A DNA stretch of 64,000 nucleotides from Escherichia phage vB_EcoM_FB. The stretch lies in the sequence record MT682711.1. The stretch is one strand, 5' to 3'. The notes beneath the pieces are model-generated. The model did no database searches and had not been told where the DNA came from. It worked only from the letters and a program-made list of their open reading frames with translations. This document shows, in pieces, positions 6,779 to 52,623 of the stretch (position 1 is the stretch's first letter; every line of letters begins with the position of its first letter). Both the position numbers and the translations under genes were made by a program.

Positions 6779-6854
6779 TGGTCGAGGCAGTAGGGATCGA
6801 ACCTACGACCTAGGACTTAGAAGGTCCTTGCTCTTCCTTCTGAGCTATGCCCCG
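6779..6854 (-). tRNA. tRNA-Arg (anticodon TCT)
   Basis: hand-folded cloverleaf: acceptor CGGGGCA/TGCCTCG, D-stem GCTC/GAGC, anticodon stem AGGAC/GTCCT with loop CTTCTAA, T-arm GTAGG-TTCGATC-CCTAC, encoded CCA. Confidence 0.85.
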
Positions 6855-6857
6855 TAA

Positions 6858-7526
6858 TTAAAATTTCATTTTTCGACCTTTAAACCATCCTTCTGGAATT
6901 GGGTCAGTTTTCTTAATACGTTTAGAAACTTTTTCATCTAATGAATGAATCCACATCATACCAAATTGGGAATTCTTTTCGCCCTGTTGATGTTTATTTC
7001 TGGCGTGAGATTCTTTCATTTTATTAATAGTTTCAGGAGTATGATGCTTATTTAAAAATCTGCTATTATTTAAAAATTTTTCCCTGTATTCAGGAGTTGA
7101 CCACAAGCGTTTAAATACATTTGAACCATGTTTACGATATTTTTCTTGAAGTAAAATATCACTTTTAAAACGTGACTTAAACGATTTAGCTCCTTTTAAA
7201 CTAGCGTCTTTCTTCTGGTTTAGCATCCCAGGAATATTTATATGGTCCCAACCACCTTCACCACCTAATTTCAAATTATAAACATCAGGGCGCTTTAAAA
7301 ACTCTTCAGTCACAATATTCTTTTCTGACTCAAACATAGAGGTTTTATCGTCAAAGAACTCTCTAATATTTCTTTAGAAAAATTTTCTATACCATACTTA
7401 TCTTGGGCTCTTTTTAATAATTTACCAGAACCCATATATCCATCATCTAAATTTTCGGTAGAATGAGCGCCTATATAGATTTTTATTATTAATTTTATTT
7501 GTTATTTTATAAATGTAATGGAACAT
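6858..7526 (-). pseudogene. GIY-YIG homing endonuclease disrupted by two frameshifts
   Basis: three frames together rebuild a protein collinear with the intact paralog at 12737-13249 ([15 protein letters not shown] / [26 protein letters not shown]... / ...NLKLGGEGG...); AGGAG RBS before the first ATG. Confidence 0.6.
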
Positions 7527-7567: not shown

Positions 7568-7638
7568 TGGCCCTGGGTGGAATCGAACCACCATCCAGCG
7601 ATTATGAGTCGCTCGCTTGACCGTCCAGCTACAGGGCC
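7568..7638 (-). tRNA. tRNA with CAT anticodon (Ile2-type as in T4, or Met)
   Basis: acceptor GGCCCTG/CAGGGCC perfect, anticodon stem AGCGA/TCGCT with loop CTCATAA, T-arm GGTGG-TTCGATT-CCACC; CCA not encoded. Confidence 0.8.
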
Positions 7639-10815: not shown

Positions 10816-11652
10816 TTAAGAATTCTTCCATACTTTCTGAGCTGAGTAACGCTTACCTTTAGACATGAACTGTTGGAGAGGCATCATTACGACATTAGCC
10901 CAATCAGATGGTTTTATCTCTACTAAAGGTCCCTTAATATTTCCAGGGATATAAGCCTTAATCATCACGTCGGCGCCAGCGAATCCTTTTACCTTACTCC
11001 AATCGATTTTTAATTTAGTCGAGTTCGTAATGGTAGGCGTACTCGCGTATTGCTTCAGCAATTCTTCCAGAAATTGTTGTCGTGCTTTAGGTGGGATATA
11101 GTGTAAGTTCAGCCCGTACATTAAATTATGCTTACCTAGCCCAAGATAAATGATTAATGGATATTTGTCCCAGTACGGTAGGGTATCCTTATGTTTGGCA
11201 TCATAGATATACGCATAAAGCTTACCAGGAGATGGTTTAGATACCTGGTGCCCACGAATTCCTTTCTTTAATGTTTCTGTAAACCATTTAGCCGATTTAT
11301 TGTTTACAGCGGCGCCCTCGTTAGCAATCTTATCACGAATACTCTTTCTAAAACTATTCACCAAAATTAATTGACGTTCTGCTTTGGTTAATTTATTGCC
11401 AGGTTTCTTCTGAAGTTTTTCAACCTGTACAGCAGTTTTAATTCGACTCGAGTATCGAGACATCGCAGATGTAAAGCTAGAATACTTGATGCCTTTATCT
11501 TCAGCGAATTTCTTAGCCGAAACACCTTTAGCCTTAGCGTTGGCATATTCAACGCCTAAAGTTATCCATTGTTGTTCTGAACGAGTAGGCTTGGAACCTT
11601 TTGTAGTTTCAGTAGCCTCGTTGATGTAAGAAAATATACTCATCCTTTCCAT
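10816..11652 (-). CDS. 2: DNA end protector gp2
   Basis: 278 aa, synteny with T4 gp2. Confidence 0.8.
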
Positions 11653-12089
11653 CCTAATTTTTTCAGTGAGTTTTCGGTAATCAATCTGAAATTAATTCCC
11701 ATTTTATCTGCTGTAGCTTTAGCAGCTTTCCATTTATCTTTATTTACACTCCATGTATAATGTTCGTTGATATATCTCTTTTTAGCAGCTGTAGTCATTT
11801 TAGCAGGCGCCGCTGGAGGATGGGTCTCTTTAAAAGGTTTGACTTCGAAAAAGAATTGTTGACCATTGTCGAACTTCACCCAGAAGTCCATAAAATACCG
11901 ACGTTTCTTTCCATCAGCGTTACTAAAATATGGAATCACAACCTCTTCCGAGTTCCACTGGACGACATTAGGATGGTTGTCAAGCCAACGCATAAGCCAT
12001 GCTTCCCAAGAGGAACGATATTGGATTTTCTTCCAATCACCTTTATATTTTTGTAAGTTTGTAGGTTTAAATTTCCCTGAGTAGGCCAT
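11640..12089 (-). CDS. 4: head completion protein gp4
   Basis: 149 aa, synteny with T4 gp4. Confidence 0.8.
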
Positions 12090-12134
12090 AGTGCCTCCTT
12101 ATAAATATTAATATTATTTATACTCGGAGGCACT

Positions 12135-12737
12135 ATGCTCTTCTCATTTTTCGATCCTATAAATTACGAATCAAAAACAGTCAAGCCAGATTCCGGCTCA
12201 TTAACTGATGCCGATGTACTGAGCGTACCGATGACTGATATATTTAGAAACTATAAAGAATATTTTGATAAAGTGGCTAAAAATTATACACTTAAAACAT
12301 ATTATATCAGTGGGGCCCCTCGTCCAGAAGAATTAGCCCATCAACTTTATGGTAACGTGCAATTATATTGGATCCTTTTAATGTGTAACAATATCTATGA
12401 CCCTTATTACGGCTGGATTACAGGCCAAGAATCTGCGTATCAAGCAGCTATTCAACGTTATGCTACTGCAGGCGGAAACCAAGTCCTTTATCATGTCAAT
12501 GAAAAGGGTGAGAAATTCTGGAATCTAGTAAATACTCCGGAAAATCCTTATACTTGGTACGATAAAGGTGATACAGAAAAACGTTATCCTCAATATGAAG
12601 GTCCTTTGGCTGCAGTAGATATTTACGAGGACGCCATTCGTAAAAATGAATATAAGCGCGAAATAAAGATTATAGACCCTAATGACATCGAGTCCTTTGT
12701 TTCCGCTTTAATTAGAGAAATGGAGAAGTCACTCTAA
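12135..12737 (+). CDS. 53: baseplate wedge protein gp53
   Basis: 200 aa; first gene of the plus-strand baseplate block, before gp5. Confidence 0.8.
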   Translation: MLFSFFDPINYESKTVKPDSGSLTDADVLSVPMTDIFRNYKEYFDKVAKNYTLKTYYISGAPRPEELAHQLYGNVQLYWILLMCNNIYDPYYGWITGQESAYQAAIQRYATAGGNQVLYHVNEKGEKFWNLVNTPENPYTWYDKGDTEKRYPQYEGPLAAVDIYEDAIRKNEYKREIKIIDPNDIESFVSALIREMEKSL

Positions 12738-13249
12738 TGTTTTATTACGTCTATAAAATAACCAATATAATTAATGGTAAATTTTATATCGGTGCTCATA
12801 GTACATCAAATATGGATGACGGTTATATGGGCTCAGGTAAATTAATTAAACGCGCTATACTAAAATACGGCATTGAAAATTTCAAAAAAGAAATATTAAA
12901 ATTTGTTGATTCTAAAAAAGAAATGTATGAACTCGAAAAAGAACTTGTTGTCCTTACTGAAAATTCATACAATTTAAAACCGGGCGGTTCCGGTGGGTTT
13001 TTAAAACATGATAACTTTAAAGGCAGGTCCCATAGTCAGAAAACCAAAGATATTATGAGCGCTAATAACTCAGGCAAAAACAATCCTATGTATGGTAGAA
13101 AACGAGACCAACACGGAGAAAAAGCACCTAATTATGGTAAAAAGTGCTCTGAGGCTAAAAGAAAATTACTTTCTGAAAAATCTAAATCCTATTTTGAAAA
13201 CCTTCAAACCATAACTAAAAAATCTCGGCTTTGGTCCTACATCGGTTGA
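12737..13249 (+). CDS. GIY-YIG homing endonuclease (seg-like)
   Basis: N-terminal YVYKITNIINGKFYIGAHS; later NLKPGGSGG and basic C-terminus; start overlaps gp53 stop (TAATG); T4 has no gene here. Confidence 0.8.
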   Translation: MFYYVYKITNIINGKFYIGAHSTSNMDDGYMGSGKLIKRAILKYGIENFKKEILKFVDSKKEMYELEKELVVLTENSYNLKPGGSGGFLKHDNFKGRSHSQKTKDIMSANNSGKNNPMYGRKRDQHGEKAPNYGKKCSEAKRKLLSEKSKSYFENLQTITKKSRLWSYIG

Positions 13250-13295
13250 AACTAGATATGTATCAAGACATATTAAAAAGCTAGGATTAGATTTT

Positions 13296-13303
13296 TATAA
13301 ATT
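13296..13303 (+). promoter_or_regulatory. late promoter (TATAAATT) upstream of gene 5
   Basis: one mismatch to the T4 late consensus TATAAATA. Confidence 0.45.
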
Positions 13304-13369
13304 TAATCGTGATATAACAGAAACTAATGTTTCCATAGTTAGAAATATTTTAGAACAAAGGAAAGCGCT

Positions 13370-15157
13370 ATGATTAACATGTCTGATAATGTAAGTTGGT
13401 TCGTCGGTGTAGTTGAAGACCGAATGGACCCGCTCCAACAAGGCCGAGTACGCGTGCGCGTATGGGGTATGCATCCTTACGAAAAGGTCCAAGGTCCTGT
13501 AAAAGGCCTTCGTACAGAGGATTTACCGTGGATGTCCGTATTAATGCCTACATCTTCTGCCTCTGTTTCTGGTATCCAAACCGCTATGACTGGTATGGTT
13601 CCAGGTACTCAGGTTTATGGGCACTTTCTTGATAAGTGGAAATTAAACGGGCTTGTCCTCGGTACATATGGTTCCGCTTCAAGACAAAAGGCTAATCCTA
13701 ATGAAGGTTTTAGTGACCCGACAGGTCAATACCCACTTTATTTGGGTAATGATGCTGCAGCACTAAACCGAGGTGGTGAAGTTGGATACGATGCCACTTC
13801 CAACGTAATACAAGATGCAAACACCGATGTAGGTATTAATCCTGATGGTTTAGATTTGAGCCAGGTTAAGCCTGATGATAATCCTAATTTCACAATAGAA
13901 AACATGCTTCACCGTGATGAAGGGCTTCGACTGAAGGTATATTGGGACACCGAAGGATACCCTACTATCGGTATAGGTCACCTTATTACACCACAACCTA
14001 TTAGAGATATGAATCAAATAAACAAAATATTATCTAATCAGGTAGGACGAGAAGTTAAAGGTAACCCTGGTGCAATATCAATGGACGAGGTTTCTAAATT
14101 ATTCCAAGACGACCTTAAAAAAGTCCAAAACGATATAGGCAGGCATAGTGTTGTAGGTCCTGTTTATAATAAAGAAAACCGTTCGAGACAAATGGCTCTT
14201 GAAAACATGGCTTTCCAAATGGGATTGGGCGGCTTGGCTAAATTCCGTGGAATGCTTAGTGCAATGCTAATAGGCGATTATAAAAAGGCATTTGAGGAAG
14301 CTCGTAATTCAGTATGGTTTAACCAAACTAAAGGCCGTGCATCAAGGGTGTCAATGATTATCCTCACAGGTAACATGGAATCATATGGTATTATGGCCCC
14401 TAAAGAAAGGTCATTTAATGGCCGTTCGTATAGAATGATTCAAACCTTTGTGGCCCCTACAAATTCAGACCCTGCCGACCCGTGGACTCCAGAAGACACA
14501 AGGATTCTTTTTAAAGAACCTGATTCTAGTTATAAAGGCGAATATCCATATGTCCAAACCATGCAAACTGAAGGCGGGCATATCCAAGAATTCGATAATA
14601 CTCCAGGGCAAGAACGATACCGTTTAATCCATCCTACCGGTAGTTATGAAGAAGTTGCTCCTGATGGACGTAAAACTTCTAAGACGGTAGCCGATGGTTA
14701 TTATATGACCCAAGGCGATTCAAATACTTATGTTGGTGGTAATAATAAAGTCAACGTTGGTGGCGATGAAACCTATTATAATATGGCAAACGTGCGCCGT
14801 CAAACTGATGGGTCTGAAAGCATTCATATTCGAGGGAATGAAACCAAAACTGTAGAAGGTAATGGAACTCTGCTTGTTAAAGGAAATGTTAAAATAGTTA
14901 TTATGGGTACTGCTGATATAACTGTTGAACAAGAAGCATATATTACGGTTGAAAAAGATACAACAGTTAATGTCAACCAGAATGCAGATATAAGCGTTAA
15001 ACAAAAGGCCACAATCAATGCTCAAAATATGGATGTAAATGTCGAACAAGATTTAAATTTTGCAGCGACGAACATTAATTTAAACGCATCAAATACTGTG
15101 CATATGGATGGCGGTTCATTAGCTAAAGTATCTGGTGGCAACGTACAGGTCGGTTAA
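13370..15157 (+). CDS. 5: baseplate hub / tail lysozyme / cell-puncturing spike gp5
   Basis: central lysozyme-like segment and C-terminal VxVxxNxxIxV beta-helix repeats; 595 aa. Confidence 0.9.
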   Translation: MINMSDNVSWFVGVVEDRMDPLQQGRVRVRVWGMHPYEKVQGPVKGLRTEDLPWMSVLMPTSSASVSGIQTAMTGMVPGTQVYGHFLDKWKLNGLVLGTYGSASRQKANPNEGFSDPTGQYPLYLGNDAAALNRGGEVGYDATSNVIQDANTDVGINPDGLDLSQVKPDDNPNFTIENMLHRDEGLRLKVYWDTEGYPTIGIGHLITPQPIRDMNQINKILSNQVGREVKGNPGAISMDEVSKLFQDDLKKVQNDIGRHSVVGPVYNKENRSRQMALENMAFQMGLGGLAKFRGMLSAMLIGDYKKAFEEARNSVWFNQTKGRASRVSMIILTGNMESYGIMAPKERSFNGRSYRMIQTFVAPTNSDPADPWTPEDTRILFKEPDSSYKGEYPYVQTMQTEGGHIQEFDNTPGQERYRLIHPTGSYEEVAPDGRKTSKTVADGYYMTQGDSNTYVGGNNKVNVGGDETYYNMANVRRQTDGSESIHIRGNETKTVEGNGTLLVKGNVKIVIMGTADITVEQEAYITVEKDTTVNVNQNADISVKQKATINAQNMDVNVEQDLNFAATNINLNASNTVHMDGGSLAKVSGGNVQVG

Positions 15158-15158
15158 T

Positions 15159-17222
15159 ATGAATTACTACGATAAAGTTGATGAAGTGGTAGGGACTGTA
15201 ACAAGTCCCTGTGATGACGCAGTAGGACCCGGTGAATATCGCCGGGTTAAATGGGAATTATATAACCCAACAGGTGCTTTTATTCAACCTGGGAATGGCG
15301 TTGAATGGGATACCGAGATTATTCCACTAGCTACACATTTATACACACAAAATCCATTTGGTAATAAGTCCGAAACTTTTCCTGCACCTCCCCCACCGGA
15401 AGATGGAACAAGTCAAGGTATCTGGTGTGCTAAACTCGGAATATTCTTTATTACGCAATTGGATTTAGAAAATTATGTAGAATCGATTGGTGCAACTCTT
15501 TTGCCCGGTAATGATTGGTACGGCGCTGATTTATCAAAATCTGTATTGTATAAAACATCTATTGAATATGATATGTATCGCATCGAAAACTGTGGCGGTG
15601 TATGGACATCACAAGGCCCCAGAATGGACCCCAGGACGATGATTGCAGTTACGGCTGATTATCATATGTATGTCAACTTTAACGGCCTTGGTGACTCCCG
15701 CAGGGCTTATTTGAAGTACTATGAGACAAAACCTTGTACTTATGTTGGACTGGTATTAAATCTAGATGTTGATACGAGTATCCCAGGAACTCCGATTCCG
15801 GGACCGGTATCCATCGGGTCTTTACCGCCAGAAATAACCGGGCGAGCCAGGGCAATAGGCTGTGTTCCTTTTACAGCGGAATTCCCTTACAACGGATTGA
15901 CCAATGCGATTATGGCTTCATGGAATACATCTAGGAATTCATTCAAATTATATTGGGATATGCTCCCTGGATGGCCATCATCTGGTGGAACCGATTGGGA
16001 AAAATTCTTCGATTCTGGTTATAGTAAGCTATCGGTCGCAATGGAAGAGCTAGGCAACTCAGCTGTTGCTATGTGTCAATATGTTCAGCAAATGGCTTTT
16101 CTTGCATTTAAAGATGCCATATCACAGGTCTTGAATATTGTTGGCGGTGGGTGGGACTTACTTAAAAGCTTTTTACCCTCGATTACTATTATGGGCATGA
16201 CTATTGACCTAGAAGACCTCTGCACTTCAGGTGATGGTGTACAGAAATTAAAAGAAGCATGGAAAAACTTTAATTTAGAAGAAACCATCCAATCGATTTA
16301 TTCTGCCATTGGGTCTGCATACGATTATTCGGTTGAACGCGTCAAGATGTATTCGCGTGACCTTATTGATGCAATTACAGACTTGTATGACTGGGCCTGG
16401 TCTCAATTGCTTATGGCTGGTGTTGCATTATCAAAACTGTGTGTAGACCTCGCTCAAATATGGAGTATGCCTCCTATAGTTCCGAACCCAGTTTGGAGCG
16501 TTATTACTGCGGTCAAGGAAATGATGAAGCAAGTTAAACCACTGGACATGATAATGAGCGGTAACTTTCCAGGATTCACAGCATCAGATGTTTATCAAAT
16601 GGTTATGGAAAAGGTAGACCAGAAAATAGACGAAGCTTATGCAATGATTGAGGCTCTTAAAACCCAGGCACTCAATCTGTGGAATGAGATTAAGCTCAAA
16701 AAGCAAGAAGTACAAAAACAAGCTATTGAATTTAAACAATATCTTTCAGGAATGTACGAAAAAGTTACAGACGAGCTAACTGCTCAGAAGGAAGCCGCAT
16801 TAGCACAAGCTGAAGCTGCACTCGAACTTTTAAAGAATAAATATAATCAGATTAAGAACTCTATTACCGAAAGTCAAACCTCCGTTTCTGATGTATTAGA
16901 TATGGCTTTAGAAGAATTCAAAAAACTTCCTATTGTGGCTCAAATGGAAGAACTTCTCGGTATGCTCGGAGCTACTGTAGATGATATCATGGTTATATAC
17001 GAGAACTCAGTAACTAAAGCAAAATCTTTATATCACGAATTTACTGATGGTTCCAGGTCAATGAAAGACTTGTGCAAATCAATGTATAACCAAATATCAA
17101 CATTATCCTTAAGTAAGGTGGTACAATGGATTAATAAGATGCTGGGAATATTCGGTTTAACGATTGCATTTCCATCCCTTTCCATTTGCATACCTTGTTT
17201 AGAATCTCCTACTAGGAATTAA
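15159..17222 (+). CDS. novel 687-aa protein between gp5 and gp6
   Basis: uninterrupted 688-codon frame; ATG 1 nt after gp5 stop (track start 15135 is GTG); stop 1 nt before gp6 ATG; no T4 counterpart recognised. Confidence 0.75.
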   Translation: MNYYDKVDEVVGTVTSPCDDAVGPGEYRRVKWELYNPTGAFIQPGNGVEWDTEIIPLATHLYTQNPFGNKSETFPAPPPPEDGTSQGIWCAKLGIFFITQLDLENYVESIGATLLPGNDWYGADLSKSVLYKTSIEYDMYRIENCGGVWTSQGPRMDPRTMIAVTADYHMYVNFNGLGDSRRAYLKYYETKPCTYVGLVLNLDVDTSIPGTPIPGPVSIGSLPPEITGRARAIGCVPFTAEFPYNGLTNAIMASWNTSRNSFKLYWDMLPGWPSSGGTDWEKFFDSGYSKLSVAMEELGNSAVAMCQYVQQMAFLAFKDAISQVLNIVGGGWDLLKSFLPSITIMGMTIDLEDLCTSGDGVQKLKEAWKNFNLEETIQSIYSAIGSAYDYSVERVKMYSRDLIDAITDLYDWAWSQLLMAGVALSKLCVDLAQIWSMPPIVPNPVWSVITAVKEMMKQVKPLDMIMSGNFPGFTASDVYQMVMEKVDQKIDEAYAMIEALKTQALNLWNEIKLKKQEVQKQAIEFKQYLSGMYEKVTDELTAQKEAALAQAEAALELLKNKYNQIKNSITESQTSVSDVLDMALEEFKKLPIVAQMEELLGMLGATVDDIMVIYENSVTKAKSLYHEFTDGSRSMKDLCKSMYNQISTLSLSKVVQWINKMLGIFGLTIAFPSLSICIPCLESPTRN

Positions 17223-23303: not shown

Positions 23304-23327
23304 AAGGGCCGCAAGGCCCTTTCGGGT
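23304..23327 (+). terminator. rho-independent terminator after gene 8
   Basis: hairpin GGGCC-GCAA-GGCCC followed by TTTCGGGTTT. Confidence 0.55.
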
Positions 23328-30817: not shown

Positions 30818-31462
30818 ATGAACTATAATAAGATTTACAAATCTTTAATAAATAAGGGCCTCGAAAGAGGTCTAAATAAAAAGAAGGTAGGGTTTTATAC
30901 AGAGAAGCATCATATTGTCCCTAAATCCATGGGTGGTAGTGAAGACAAATCTAATTTTGTTCTTTTAACCGCTAGAGAACATTTTGTAGCTCATCAATTA
31001 TTGTATAAAATACACAAAAACCGTTCTATGGCCCATGCTATGATTAATATGTGTGCTGATAGCACAGGTAATAGGGTTAATTCTAAGTTATTAGATTGGC
31101 ACCGTAAAGCTAAGGCTAGGGCCCAAAGCGAGATGGTTTCAGGTGAAAACCATCCTATGTATAACAAGAAACATAAAAAAGAAACATTAGAAAAAATGAG
31201 ATTGGCCAAATTAGGCGTCCCATGGACTGAAGAAGTTAAGGAATCTAGAAGAGAAGAATTACTTAAAACCTCTGAACATGCTAGGACTTTCATCGACTAT
31301 AAATCTGGCGGAGAAAATTCAGCCGCAAAGAAAATATGTATAGAAGGTATAGTATTTGATTATATGGAAGAAGCGGTTCCTTGGTGTAATATATCAAGAA
31401 GAACTCTTTTAAATAGAATCAAATCTTCAGACCCTAAATGGAGGGATTGGAATTATGTCTAA
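30818..31462 (+). CDS. HNH homing endonuclease
   Basis: HNH core [31 protein letters not shown]; inserted between 13 and 14; overlaps gp14 start. Confidence 0.8.
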
Positions 31463-51506: not shown

Positions 51507-52175
51507 CTATTTATTAACTAAATTCTTTTCAAATGTTTTAACCATATAGGCCACATCTAAATCAGGAAATCCGTTCTCAACTATTATGTGTCGAAATTTC
51601 CTTCTTTTAGGCATTCCTTCCTTTATCCAAAGTTCATGAATTTCCTTTTCAAATTCCCATAATTTACTTCTCATTGAAGGCCTAGGCTGAGAATGTTTAC
51701 CTATATGAGCTTCATTAGCCTCTTTAGTACGTTTTTTACCCGACTTAGCTAACGACATAGCCTTTTTAGCTTCTTCTGTATGAGAATATGGATTTCTTTT
51801 ATGGCCATCACTTATGGCTTTTTTGGTTAATTCAGACCTTGGGATGCCTCTTATTTTTGATGCGCCTTTTTCAACAGATTCAGGGGATTTGGATGTACAA
51901 CTACCTCCTTCACCACCTGGCTTCATATTCATACAGCGAATACCTTTACCAAACTTATCCCAGGCCTCTTCTATCAAAAGCTCTTCGAATTCATAAGCAA
52001 GTTTTTCAGTATCGAAAAAGGTTCTATCGATTATTTCCATTCGGTACTTTAATCTTTTTGCATAATAGATGTAATTACCTGACCCTACATACTTATCAGA
52101 TATTTTATCAGAAGAATGCTTGCCAAAATACAGCCTAGTTCCGTTAGGCGAGTATACTAAAGTTTGGTAACACAT
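51507..52175 (-). CDS. GIY-YIG-like homing endonuclease (degenerate N-terminal motif)
   Basis: VYSPNGTRLYFGKHS...YVGSG and MKPGGEGG align with the other two GIY-YIG genes; ATG start chosen at 52175 (track start 52205 is TTG). Confidence 0.6.
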   Translation of the reverse strand: MCYQTLVYSPNGTRLYFGKHSSDKISDKYVGSGNYIYYAKRLKYRMEIIDRTFFDTEKLAYEFEELLIEEAWDKFGKGIRCMNMKPGGEGGSCTSKSPESVEKGASKIRGIPRSELTKKAISDGHKRNPYSHTEEAKKAMSLAKSGKKRTKEANEAHIGKHSQPRPSMRSKLWEFEKEIHELWIKEGMPKRRKFRHIIVENGFPDLDVAYMVKTFEKNLVNK

Positions 52176-52185
52176 GTGGTACTTT

Positions 52186-52623
52186 TTATTTTTCACCTGC
52201 TTCAAATTTCCTGAGCTCCAACATATTCTTTAATGAGAAACCTCTAGATTTGACCGCATCCAATGCCGAACTACAAAAGTCTTGTAATAAGGCCCAATAC
52301 TGGATTGACGTATCGATTTTAATTACGCTTGAATCCGCCGCCATTACAGTCTTTAATTCCGACTTCTCGTACTGGTCCATACAAACCTCATCACCAGGCT
52401 CTCCACGTCCCGTGTAGAAATCTAATCTCTTCTTAAGAGAGGTCTTTTTCTGGATTTCTAATCGCATTATCTCTTTCTTACAATTCGTATATAGTCTTAG
52501 CCATTTGCTGTGCAGCAAAACGTTGTTCTGTACTTCATACTGTAAACGAGTCCCATCAATCTTTAAATCTTCATCTAATGCATCTTGGAACGATTCTAAT
52601 TTATATTCAATCTCTTTACTCAT
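52186..52623 (-). CDS. uvsY: recombination mediator UvsY
   Basis: ATG at 52623 after AGGAAA gives 145 aa; blocks LQYE..NNV.L.SKWL, YEKSE.KTV, SRGF..K match T4 UvsY. Confidence 0.9.
   Translation of the reverse strand: MSKEIEYKLESFQDALDEDLKIDGTRLQYEVQNNVLLHSKWLRLYTNCKKEIMRLEIQKKTSLKKRLDFYTGRGEPGDEVCMDQYEKSELKTVMAADSSVIKIDTSIQYWALLQDFCSSALDAVKSRGFSLKNMLELRKFEAGEK

What the first reader, a model, noticed from the sequence alone, without database searches (positions are those of the whole stretch)
12737..13249. Intact GIY-YIG homing endonuclease inserted between gp53 and gp5
A 170-aa seg-like gene with a canonical N-terminal GIY-YIG module and basic C-terminal region is wedged into the baseplate operon, with its ATG overlapping the gp53 stop. 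T4 has no gene at this junction. It is one of four endonuclease genes in the window, indicating heavy homing-endonuclease traffic in the structural region.
Basis: partly seen in the sequence, partly recalled or inferred. Interest (0 to 1): 0.45.

Follow-up and report, generated by a model that had tools for sequence, protein, structure and literature searches.

The report
Frameshifted Seg-type homing endonuclease gene
A selfish GIY-YIG "homing endonuclease" gene really does sit between baseplate genes 53 and 5 of this T4-like coliphage, but this copy is not intact: one extra A cuts off its last 50 amino acids, so it is an ordinary mobile gene that is probably starting to decay.

Summary
The ORF exists as described: 12737..13249, + strand, 170 aa. 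Its ATG overlaps the gp53 stop (TAATG). It has a GIY-YIG domain and a NUMOD3 motif, and the modelled N-terminal domain matches the I-TevI catalytic fold.

The window matches Escherichia phage vB_EcoM_FB, a Dhakavirus, where this protein is annotated "hypothetical protein FB_0152".

Mobile-element reading: supported.
- At least 35 related phage records have an empty 53/5 junction. Five carry the gene.
- The gene is 99.5% identical between a Dhakavirus (KIT01) and a Gaprivervirus (P479), whose flanking genes are only 69-85% identical.
- T4 has nothing at this junction. T4 SegC is the closest relative I compared: 46% identity, N-terminal 145 residues only.

"Intact": not supported.
- Every relative encodes 211 aa, with a stop that overlaps the gp5 ATG.
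- The window has A6 at 13217-13222 where the 99.7%-identical IME540 copy has A5.
- The last 50 codons now lie in the +1 frame (13215..13373). In the intact frame they show purifying selection (dN/dS 0.15).

Most likely this is a recently inactivated or crippled Seg-type gene. A homopolymer sequencing error remains possible. A second seg gene in the window, of segB type, is also frameshifted. This is ordinary biology and of low interest.

The parts
12100..12107 (+). T4-type late-promoter consensus TATAAATA, 28 nt upstream of the gp53 ATG. It is the only such motif ahead of the 53 / seg / 5 block.
   Evidence: 18 matches in the window against 7.7 expected. None lies between 12123 and 29850, so the seg gene has no late-promoter consensus of its own.
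12135..12737 (+). gp53 baseplate wedge gene. Its last ~38 nt form the upstream co-conversion tract seen in KIT01/P479.
   Evidence: PF11246, E 1.7e-72; flank comparison.
12722..12725 (+). GGAG Shine-Dalgarno, 11 nt before the ATG at 12737. In empty alleles the same GGAG and ATG serve gp5; here they serve the seg gene.
   Evidence: WG01 empty allele: ATGGAGAAAGCCCTCTAATGATT.
12737..13249 (+). Truncated seg-like ORF of 170 aa: residues 1-161 of the 211-aa protein plus 9 frameshifted residues (KSRLWSYIG).
12743..12973 (+). GIY-YIG catalytic domain (residues 3-79). Y6, Y17, G19, E67 and N79 are invariant among 27 homologues.
   Evidence: pLDDT ~90; Foldseek top hits are the I-TevI catalytic domain 1mk0/1ln0, probability 1.0.
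13022..13111 (+). NUMOD3 DNA-binding motif in the basic linker (residues 96-125).
13217..13222 (+). A6 homopolymer, the frameshift site. IME540 has A5; KIT01/P479 have AAGAA.
13215..13373 (+). Out-of-frame (+1) remnant of the C-terminal domain, 52 codons plus a TGA stop that overlaps the gp5 ATG. This frame contains no start codon.
   Evidence: deleting one A gives a protein identical to IME540 QJA42683.1; dN/dS 0.15 in this frame; 0.86 and 12 in the other two; two predicted helices.
12740..13372 (+). The inserted element relative to empty alleles: 633 bp here, 632 bp in intact alleles. It is bounded by a repeated ATG, so the exact ends are ambiguous by 3 nt.
13359..13362 (+). AGGA Shine-Dalgarno brought in by the element, 7 nt before the gp5 ATG.
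   Evidence: Read directly from the sequence. It is conserved in IME540, KIT01 and P479.
13370..15157 (+). gp5 baseplate hub / tail lysozyme gene, the downstream flank.

Best explanation
This is a free-standing, Seg-type GIY-YIG homing-endonuclease gene. It is a promoter-less cassette of about 632 bp inserted exactly at the overlapping stop/start (TAATG) of baseplate genes 53 and 5 in a Dhakavirus.

In its intact 211-aa form it takes over gp5's ribosome-binding site and ATG. It is presumably transcribed from the late promoter ahead of gene 53. It hands gp5 a new Shine-Dalgarno and an ATGA stop/start overlap.

By analogy with the T4 Seg enzymes, the protein would cut endonuclease-free 53/5 alleles of co-infecting relatives. 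It would then be copied in by double-strand-break repair, dragging flanking sequence with it. That is an inference.

In this genome (vB_EcoM_FB) a single A was inserted in an A5 run. This shifts the frame after residue 161 and removes the C-terminal 50-residue helical domain, which is presumed to bind DNA. The copy here is therefore most likely a very recently inactivated or crippled homing-endonuclease gene at the start of the decay phase of the usual cycle of invasion, fixation and decay.

Shown here: domain content, fold, the insertion site, presence/absence polymorphism, inter-genus transfer, and the frameshift. Inferred: cleavage activity, the target site, and loss of function.
For: Identity and fold:
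- Pfam GIY-YIG plus NUMOD3.
- PHROG 314 'homing endonuclease', E 3.5e-49, aligned through residue 190 of the reconstructed protein, which is past the frameshift.
- In the AlphaFold model, residues 1-85 have pLDDT ~90, and the top PDB matches are the I-TevI catalytic domain.
- Motif A aligns residue for residue with I-TevI residues 5-22.
- 46% identity to T4 SegC over residues 2-145.

Mobility:
- 59 related records match the region. Five contain the gene, and at least 35 listed records have the two flanks contiguous.
- The empty junction reads CTCTAATGATT.
- KIT01 (Dhakavirus) against P479 (Gaprivervirus): seg 99.5% identical, gp4 68.7%, gp53 74.6%, gp5 84.6%. The last ~38 nt of gp53 are also identical between them.

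Expression context:
- The late-promoter consensus occurs only ahead of gp53.

Frameshift:
- A6 in the window against A5 in IME540.
- Deleting one A gives a 211-aa protein identical to IME540's.
- That exact 211-aa protein is read on 10 contigs, and in all six places shown it sits next to gp5 with gp53 upstream.
- The 170-aa form is recorded only for phage FB.
- dN/dS of the lost region is 0.15 in the intact frame.

The frameshift is probably real:
- The genome was sequenced on Illumina MiSeq at 134x (PMC7471389).
- Over ~36 kb of well-aligned blocks (mostly structural genes) compared with IME540, the only other uncompensated 1-bp indels are three intergenic ones.
- The segB-type gene in the same window carries +1 and +2 slippage insertions, and the second is a dinucleotide expansion.
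Against: - A single A6/A5 difference is exactly the kind of change a sequencing or assembly error would produce. I could not look at the reads.
- Apart from the extra A, FB differs from IME540 by only one synonymous base in the gene. There is no further decay to prove pseudogene status.
- No function could be shown for the lost C-terminal domain. It has no Pfam match, no PDB match, and no significant relatives among 1.8 billion representative proteins.
- 'Loss of DNA binding' therefore rests on analogy with I-TevI architecture (PMC2988022).
- The truncated protein keeps the whole catalytic domain and NUMOD3, and could retain some activity.
- Nuclease activity was not tested for any member of this subfamily.
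Confidence: 0.65

Rival explanations
1. Sequencing or assembly artefact. The phage really has A5, and so carries an intact 211-aa Seg-like endonuclease identical to that of IME540. The 170-aa ORF would then exist only in the deposited sequence.
For: The difference is one base in a homopolymer. The rest of the gene is 99.7% identical to IME540, with no other damage. The intact protein is the form found on 10 other contigs.
Against: Illumina MiSeq at 134x coverage rarely miscalls an A5/A6 run. In ~36 kb of well-aligned blocks there are no frameshifts in other coding sequence. The protein collection lists the same 170-aa sequence from a Logan assembly as well as from NCBI. Another seg gene in this genome carries two further frameshifts, one of them a dinucleotide insertion.
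Confidence: 0.2
2. One reading: the 170-aa product is a complete, working homing endonuclease. Its GIY-YIG domain plus the basic NUMOD3 linker would be enough to find and cut the target.
For: The whole catalytic domain and the NUMOD3 motif are in frame, and the invariant Y6/Y17/G19/E67/N79 are present. Truncated Seg-like genes are annotated in other phages, for example a 148-aa Acj9 protein named 'putative truncated Seg-like homing endonuclease' (P0101).
Against: All relatives at this site are 211 aa. The lost 50 codons are under purifying selection. The last 9 residues of the ORF are frameshift read-through with no counterpart in the relatives. In I-TevI the C-terminal modules provide most of the site recognition (PMC2988022).
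Confidence: 0.1
3. Recoding. A low level of +1 ribosomal slippage of tRNA-Lys, or transcriptional slippage, on ACT AAA AAA TCT restores the frame. A small, perhaps usefully limited, amount of full-length enzyme would still be made.
For: The shift site is a run of two in-frame AAA codons. The +1 frame is open all the way to the gp5 ATG. Homing endonucleases are normally kept at very low expression (PMC2988022).
Against: No relative uses such a site. IME540 has A5 in frame, and KIT01/P479 have AAGAA with no run. A6 is short for efficient slippage, and I looked for no stimulatory element and none is evident. The simplest reading is a fresh mutation.
Confidence: 0.05

Closest known systems
T4 SegC (free-standing GIY-YIG homing endonuclease; 5.1/5.3 region in PMC2988022, downstream of gene 5)
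   Same: 46% identity over residues 2-145, covering the GIY-YIG domain and the start of the linker. Both are free-standing, promoter-less cassettes in the late baseplate gene region, and both have a start codon overlapping the upstream ORF (PMC2988022).
   Different: The insertion site differs: the 53/5 junction here, against downstream of gene 5 in T4. The C-terminal 65 residues are unrelated. The copy in the window is frameshifted.
IME540 QJA42683.1 'putative Seg-like homing endonuclease', and the KIT01/P479-type 211-aa proteins
   Same: Same locus, and same junctions with gp53 and gp5. The IME540 gene is 99.7% identical at the nucleotide level; the KIT01/P479 type is 84% identical in DNA and 88% in protein.
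   Different: Those genes are in frame at 211 aa. The window has one extra A and stops at 170 aa.
I-TevI (td intron GIY-YIG endonuclease; PDB 1mk0/1ln0)
   Same: The catalytic fold matches (Foldseek probability 1.0, TM 0.65 on the target). Motif A aligns. Both have the beads-on-a-string plan of catalytic domain, linker and small DNA-binding modules, as described for I-TevI and other phage endonucleases in PMC2988022.
   Different: This gene is free-standing, not intron-encoded. Pfam found no I-TevI-type DNA-binding domain. There is no significant similarity to I-TevI at the sequence level.
T4 SegB (tRNA-region endonuclease)
   Same: A second, segB-type gene in the same window (6858..7526, -) shows the same fate, inactivation by slippage frameshifts.
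   Different: It lies at a different locus and is a different subfamily: the IME540/LHE83-type gene at that tRNA locus is about 40% identical to the gene studied here.

Membership tests
GIY-YIG nuclease superfamily | GIY-YIG catalytic domain detectable by profile | tested here: met
   PF01541: 27.1 bits against a cut-off of 22.6, residues 3-79.
GIY-YIG nuclease superfamily | GIY-YIG alpha/beta fold | tested here: met
   In the AlphaFold model, residues 1-85 have pLDDT ~90. The top PDB matches are I-TevI 1mk0/1ln0: probability 0.99-1.00, TM 0.62-0.65, rmsd 3.0-3.5 A.
GIY-YIG nuclease superfamily | Conserved motif residues: Tyr of GIY, Tyr-x-Gly of YIG, catalytic Arg, Glu and Asn | tested here: inconclusive
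   Y6, Y17, G19, E67 and N79 are invariant in 27-28 homologues, and motif A aligns with I-TevI residues 5-22. The Arg equivalent could not be assigned: R39 is not invariant in the family. The equivalence of E67 and N79 to I-TevI E75 and N90 is inferred from position only.
Seg-type free-standing homing endonuclease genes of T4-like phages | Free-standing ORF between conserved genes, with presence/absence polymorphism among relatives | tested here: met
   Five records carry the gene and at least 35 listed records lack it, with precise junctions.
Seg-type free-standing homing endonuclease genes of T4-like phages | Evidence of horizontal spread with co-conversion of flanks | tested here: met
   seg is 99.5% identical between KIT01 and P479, against 69-85% for the flanking genes. 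They also share an identical ~38-nt tract at the gp53 3' end.
Seg-type free-standing homing endonuclease genes of T4-like phages | Catalytic domain joined by a linker to C-terminal DNA-binding modules, in one intact reading frame | tested here: not met
   NUMOD3 is present, but the C-terminal 50 residues are in the +1 frame because of the A6 run. The ancestral 211-aa form meets this feature. The window's copy does not.
Seg-type free-standing homing endonuclease genes of T4-like phages | Site-specific cleavage of the endonuclease-free allele, and biased inheritance in mixed infection | not testable with these tools
   This needs purified protein and phage crosses. I found no published assay for this subfamily.

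The most novel reading that the evidence does not exclude
The C-terminal ~50 residues shared by the 211-aa proteins at this locus may be a previously undescribed DNA-recognition module. They have no Pfam or PDB match and no significant relative among 1.8 billion representative proteins. Under this reading, the FB allele would be a natural 'catalytic domain plus NUMOD3 only' variant that still acts. It could act through residual binding, or through low-level +1 slippage on the A6 run. That would make it a naturally attenuated or recoded homing endonuclease, not a dead one.
Probability: 0.1. Interest if true: 0.4.

Novelty: new member of a known kind. Interest (0 to 1): 0.2.

Why it matters
The finding documents a Seg-type homing-endonuclease gene at a site that T4 does not use, the 53/5 stop/start overlap. 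There is clear comparative evidence that it moved between two genera of T-even phages.

It also catches one copy one mutation after inactivation, which illustrates the cycle of invasion and decay in homing-endonuclease genes.

In practice it corrects the annotation. FB_0152 is not a complete 'hypothetical protein' but the frameshifted remnant of a 211-aa Seg-like endonuclease.

It opens no new question. The mechanism and the family are well established.

Tried and rejected
1. Naming the C-terminal domain. All of these failed or were uninformative:
- Pfam at E up to 10 gave only a chance Corona_7 hit.
- The PDB sequence search found nothing.
- phmmer of the 52-aa +1-frame peptide against 1.8 billion representatives gave two weak multi-stretch hits (E 3e-5 and 1e-3), which I did not examine further and judged uninformative.
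- The full-length AlphaFold model has low confidence beyond residue 85.
- A single-sequence model of the 52 aa gives two helices at pLDDT 80, but Foldseek finds no match better than E 3.7.
- By eye the sequence (ITKNLGFGPTSVETRYVSRHIKKLG) resembles a helix-turn-helix. That stays an inference.

2. Looking for the exact 170-aa product on other contigs. None is on record, so I could not check the frameshift independently.

3. A separate small protein from the +1 frame. Rejected, because there is no ATG, GTG or TTG in that frame after the stop at 13212-13214.

4. A promoter inside the cassette. There is no T4 late consensus there, and sigma-70-like matches are near the chance level (10 found, 6.1 +/- 2.6 expected).

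5. The terminator-like hairpin at 12979-12994. It lies in the conserved PGGSGGF codons and pairs less well in the KIT01 type, so I treat it as chance.

6. General poor sequence quality as the cause of the frameshift. Rejected as the main explanation, because no other gene in the ~36 kb of well-aligned blocks is frameshifted relative to IME540.

Full report
**What is in the sequence**

The ORF listing shows a + strand ORF at 12737..13249 of 170 aa. Its ATG shares the A of the TAA stop of the upstream gene...CTC TAATG TTT....

Pfam identifies the upstream gene (12135..12737) as baseplate wedge protein gp53 (E 1.7e-72). It identifies the downstream gene (13370..15157) as gp5, through Gp5_OB (E 3.3e-61) and the lysozyme domain.

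The ORF itself matches GIY-YIG (residues 3-79, 27.1 bits, cut-off 22.6), NUMOD3 (residues 96-125, E 1e-11) and SegE_GIY-YIG. Residues 88-170 are basic, with pI 10.1.

**Where the window comes from**

The 170-aa protein is identical to QLF81398.1, 'hypothetical protein FB_0152' of Escherichia phage vB_EcoM_FB, on a contig of 171,555 bp. The genome announcement gives MT682711, Illumina MiSeq, 134x coverage, Geneious assembly, reads SRR12228472 (PMC7471389). The nearest record in the phage collection is the Dhakavirus vB_EcoM_IME540, 98.7% identical over 1.4 kb.

**The gene is not intact**

- Downstream of the stop at 13249, the +1 frame stays open from 13215 to a TGA at 13371-13373, which overlaps the gp5 ATG (ATGA).
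- In IME540, KIT01 and P479 the annotated gene is 636 bp (211 aa) and ends on that ATGA. P896 and PSD2001 carry the same 211-aa protein.
- The DNA alignment shows one difference responsible: ACTAAAAAATCT in the window against ACT-AAAAATCT in IME540. That is A6 at 13217-13222 instead of A5. KIT01 and P479 read ACTAAGAAC there.
- Removing one A gives a 211-aa protein identical to IME540 QJA42683.1.
- tblastn had already hinted at this. Even the 100%-identical IME540 match stops at residue 161 of the 170.
- The exact 211-aa protein is encoded on 10 contigs read: four DRR8271xx runs, SRR36547139 and IME540 among the six shown. In all six it sits next to gp5 with gp53 upstream.
- The 170-aa form is on record only for FB.

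**The lost part was a selected protein domain**

Between the IME540-type and KIT01-type genes (84% nucleotide identity), codons 162-211 have dN/dS 0.15 in the intact frame. In the two other frames the values are 0.86 and 12. The PHROG 314 'homing endonuclease' profile aligns through residue 190 of the reconstructed protein.

I could not name the domain. It has no Pfam match and no PDB sequence match. Among 1.8 billion representative proteins there were only two weak multi-stretch hits. The model of the full protein is poor after residue 85. A single-sequence model gives two helices at pLDDT 80, without a significant structural match.

Its sequence resembles a helix-turn-helix by eye. By analogy with I-TevI and other phage endonucleases, whose C-terminal modules give site specificity (PMC2988022), it is probably the main DNA-recognition module. 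That is an inference.

**The N-terminal part is a bona fide GIY-YIG domain**

- Residues 1-85 of the model have pLDDT about 90. The three best PDB matches are the I-TevI catalytic domain: probability 0.99-1.00, TM 0.62-0.65 on the target, rmsd 3.0-3.5 A.
- A profile of 27 homologues aligns motif A with I-TevI residues 5-22.
- Y6, Y17, G19, E67 and N79 are invariant in the family alignment.
- The catalytic Arg could not be assigned.
- The closest relative I compared from T4 is SegC, with 46% identity over residues 2-145 only.

**It is, or was, a mobile element**

- Of 59 related phage records, five carry the gene. At least 35 listed records have gp53 and gp5 directly abutting, with a span of 765-768 bp instead of 1400.
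- In the empty WG01 allele the junction is CTC TAATG ATT, so the gp53 stop overlaps the gp5 start.
- The occupied allele is CTC TAATG [632 bp] ATT. The element starts after the shared ATG and ends with its own ...AAAGGAAAGCGCT ATG.
- The seg gene therefore takes over gp5's GGAG and ATG, and supplies gp5 with a new AGGA and an ATGA overlap.
- A T4 record has no gene here.
- KIT01 (Dhakavirus) and P479 (Gaprivervirus) share a 99.5%-identical seg gene and an identical protein. Their gp4, gp53 and gp5 are 68.7, 74.6 and 84.6% identical.
- The last ~38 nt of gp53 are also identical between them and differ from seg-free Dhakaviruses. This looks like a co-conversion tract.
- The only T4-type late-promoter consensus near the block is at 12100, ahead of gp53. 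The gene is thus a promoter-less cassette, as described for several T4 seg and mob genes (PMC2988022).

**Real mutation or sequencing error?**

I compared the window with IME540 block by block. In the four well-aligned blocks (~36 kb, mostly structural genes), the uncompensated single-base indels are this one and three others at 23324, 37585 and 46499. Those three are all intergenic by IME540's annotation.

A second seg gene in the window gives supporting evidence. It is a segB-type gene between tRNA-Arg and tRNA-Met (6858..7526, - strand), 96% identical to Tequatrovirus segB. It is broken by a +1 insertion (A5 against A4) and a +2 insertion (AGAGAG against AGAG). A dinucleotide expansion is not a typical Illumina error.

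The platform and coverage and the Logan listing of the same 170-aa product point the same way. On this evidence I put a real frameshift at roughly 3:1 over an artefact. Only the reads can settle it. Apart from the extra A, FB and IME540 differ by one synonymous base in the gene, so if the mutation is real it is very recent.

**Other readings**

- A separately translated C-terminal peptide is excluded, because the +1 frame has no start codon.
- Restoration by +1 slippage on AAA AAA is mechanically conceivable. No relative uses such a site.
- The truncated protein may keep some nuclease activity, since the catalytic domain and NUMOD3 remain. The purifying selection on the lost part argues that the full length is needed for the gene's normal function.

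The window does hold four endonuclease-like genes:
- this one;
- the broken segB-type gene;
- an HNH/NUMOD3/I-TevI_DNA-bd gene at 30818..31462, which sits between the two neck-protein genes and is absent from IME540;
- a 232-aa PHROG 314 member at 51507..52205.

Heavy homing-endonuclease traffic is therefore a fair description, but two of the four genes are disrupted.

**Verdict**

This is a known kind of element, a Seg-type free-standing GIY-YIG homing-endonuclease gene, at a site not occupied in T4. Closely related records already annotate it as 'putative Seg-like homing endonuclease'. The copy in this window is frameshift-truncated, not intact. Interest is low, at 0.2. The useful outcome is a corrected annotation and a clean example of recent decay in a homing-endonuclease gene.

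Noticed in passing
window 6858..7526 (-), between tRNA-Arg 6779-6854 and tRNA-Met 7568-7638: A segB-type GIY-YIG gene, 96% identical to Tequatrovirus segB (JEP6, HY03), is split into fragments of 27, 41 and 159 aa. The causes are a +1 insertion (A5 against A4) and a +2 insertion (AGAGAG against AGAG). The frame is restored after the second insertion, but a stop falls in between. The IME540 copy at this locus is intact (221 aa) and only 84% identical, so a different segB allele has been swapped in here.
   Followed up: partly
window 30818..31462 (+): A 214-aa HNH endonuclease with NUMOD3 and an I-TevI-type DNA-binding domain (PHROG 655, E 1e-48). It occupies a ~643-bp insertion between the two neck-protein genes (gp13/gp14 equivalents) that is absent from IME540.
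   Followed up: partly
window 51507..52205 (-): A 232-aa ORF matching the seg family profile (E 6e-10) and PHROG 314 'homing endonuclease' (E 1e-16). Its Pfam signal is below threshold (NUMOD3, E 0.012). It appears to be a divergent GIY-YIG-like gene and looks full length.
   Followed up: partly
window ~14926..17222 (+): The 3' end of gp5 (595 aa here and in WG01, 580 aa in IME540) and the gene after it differ from IME540. The window has a 695-aa ORF (15135..17222; PHROG 5296, unknown function, no Pfam hit above threshold). IME540 and the metagenome contigs have instead a Y07E (5.1-like) gene plus a PAAR (5.4-like) gene. This looks like a module swap at the tip of the tail spike.
   Followed up: no
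window 11640..12089 (-): The gp4 head-completion protein matches Pfam Tn7_TnsA-like_N (E 2.9e-24). It is a nuclease fold but not a homing endonuclease.
   Followed up: no
window 12979..12994 (+): A terminator-like hairpin followed by a T-run lies inside the seg ORF, in the codons for the conserved PGGSGGF motif. It pairs less well in the KIT01/P479 allele, so it is probably chance.
   Followed up: partly
L008 and L012, 429..1079 (-): Two metagenome contigs that carry the intact seg gene also have an extra 216-aa gene with no Pfam hit between the tail-completion gene and gp2. P479 has an annotated 'homing endonuclease' between gp2 and gp4. The gp3-gp2-gp4 stretch may therefore hold further insertion sites.
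   Followed up: no
window 12100-12107 (+) and 12115-12122 (-): Divergent T4-type late-promoter consensus sequences (TATAAATA) lie in the 45-bp gap between gp4 and gp53. The motif is enriched in the window: 18 found against 7.7 expected.
   Followed up: no
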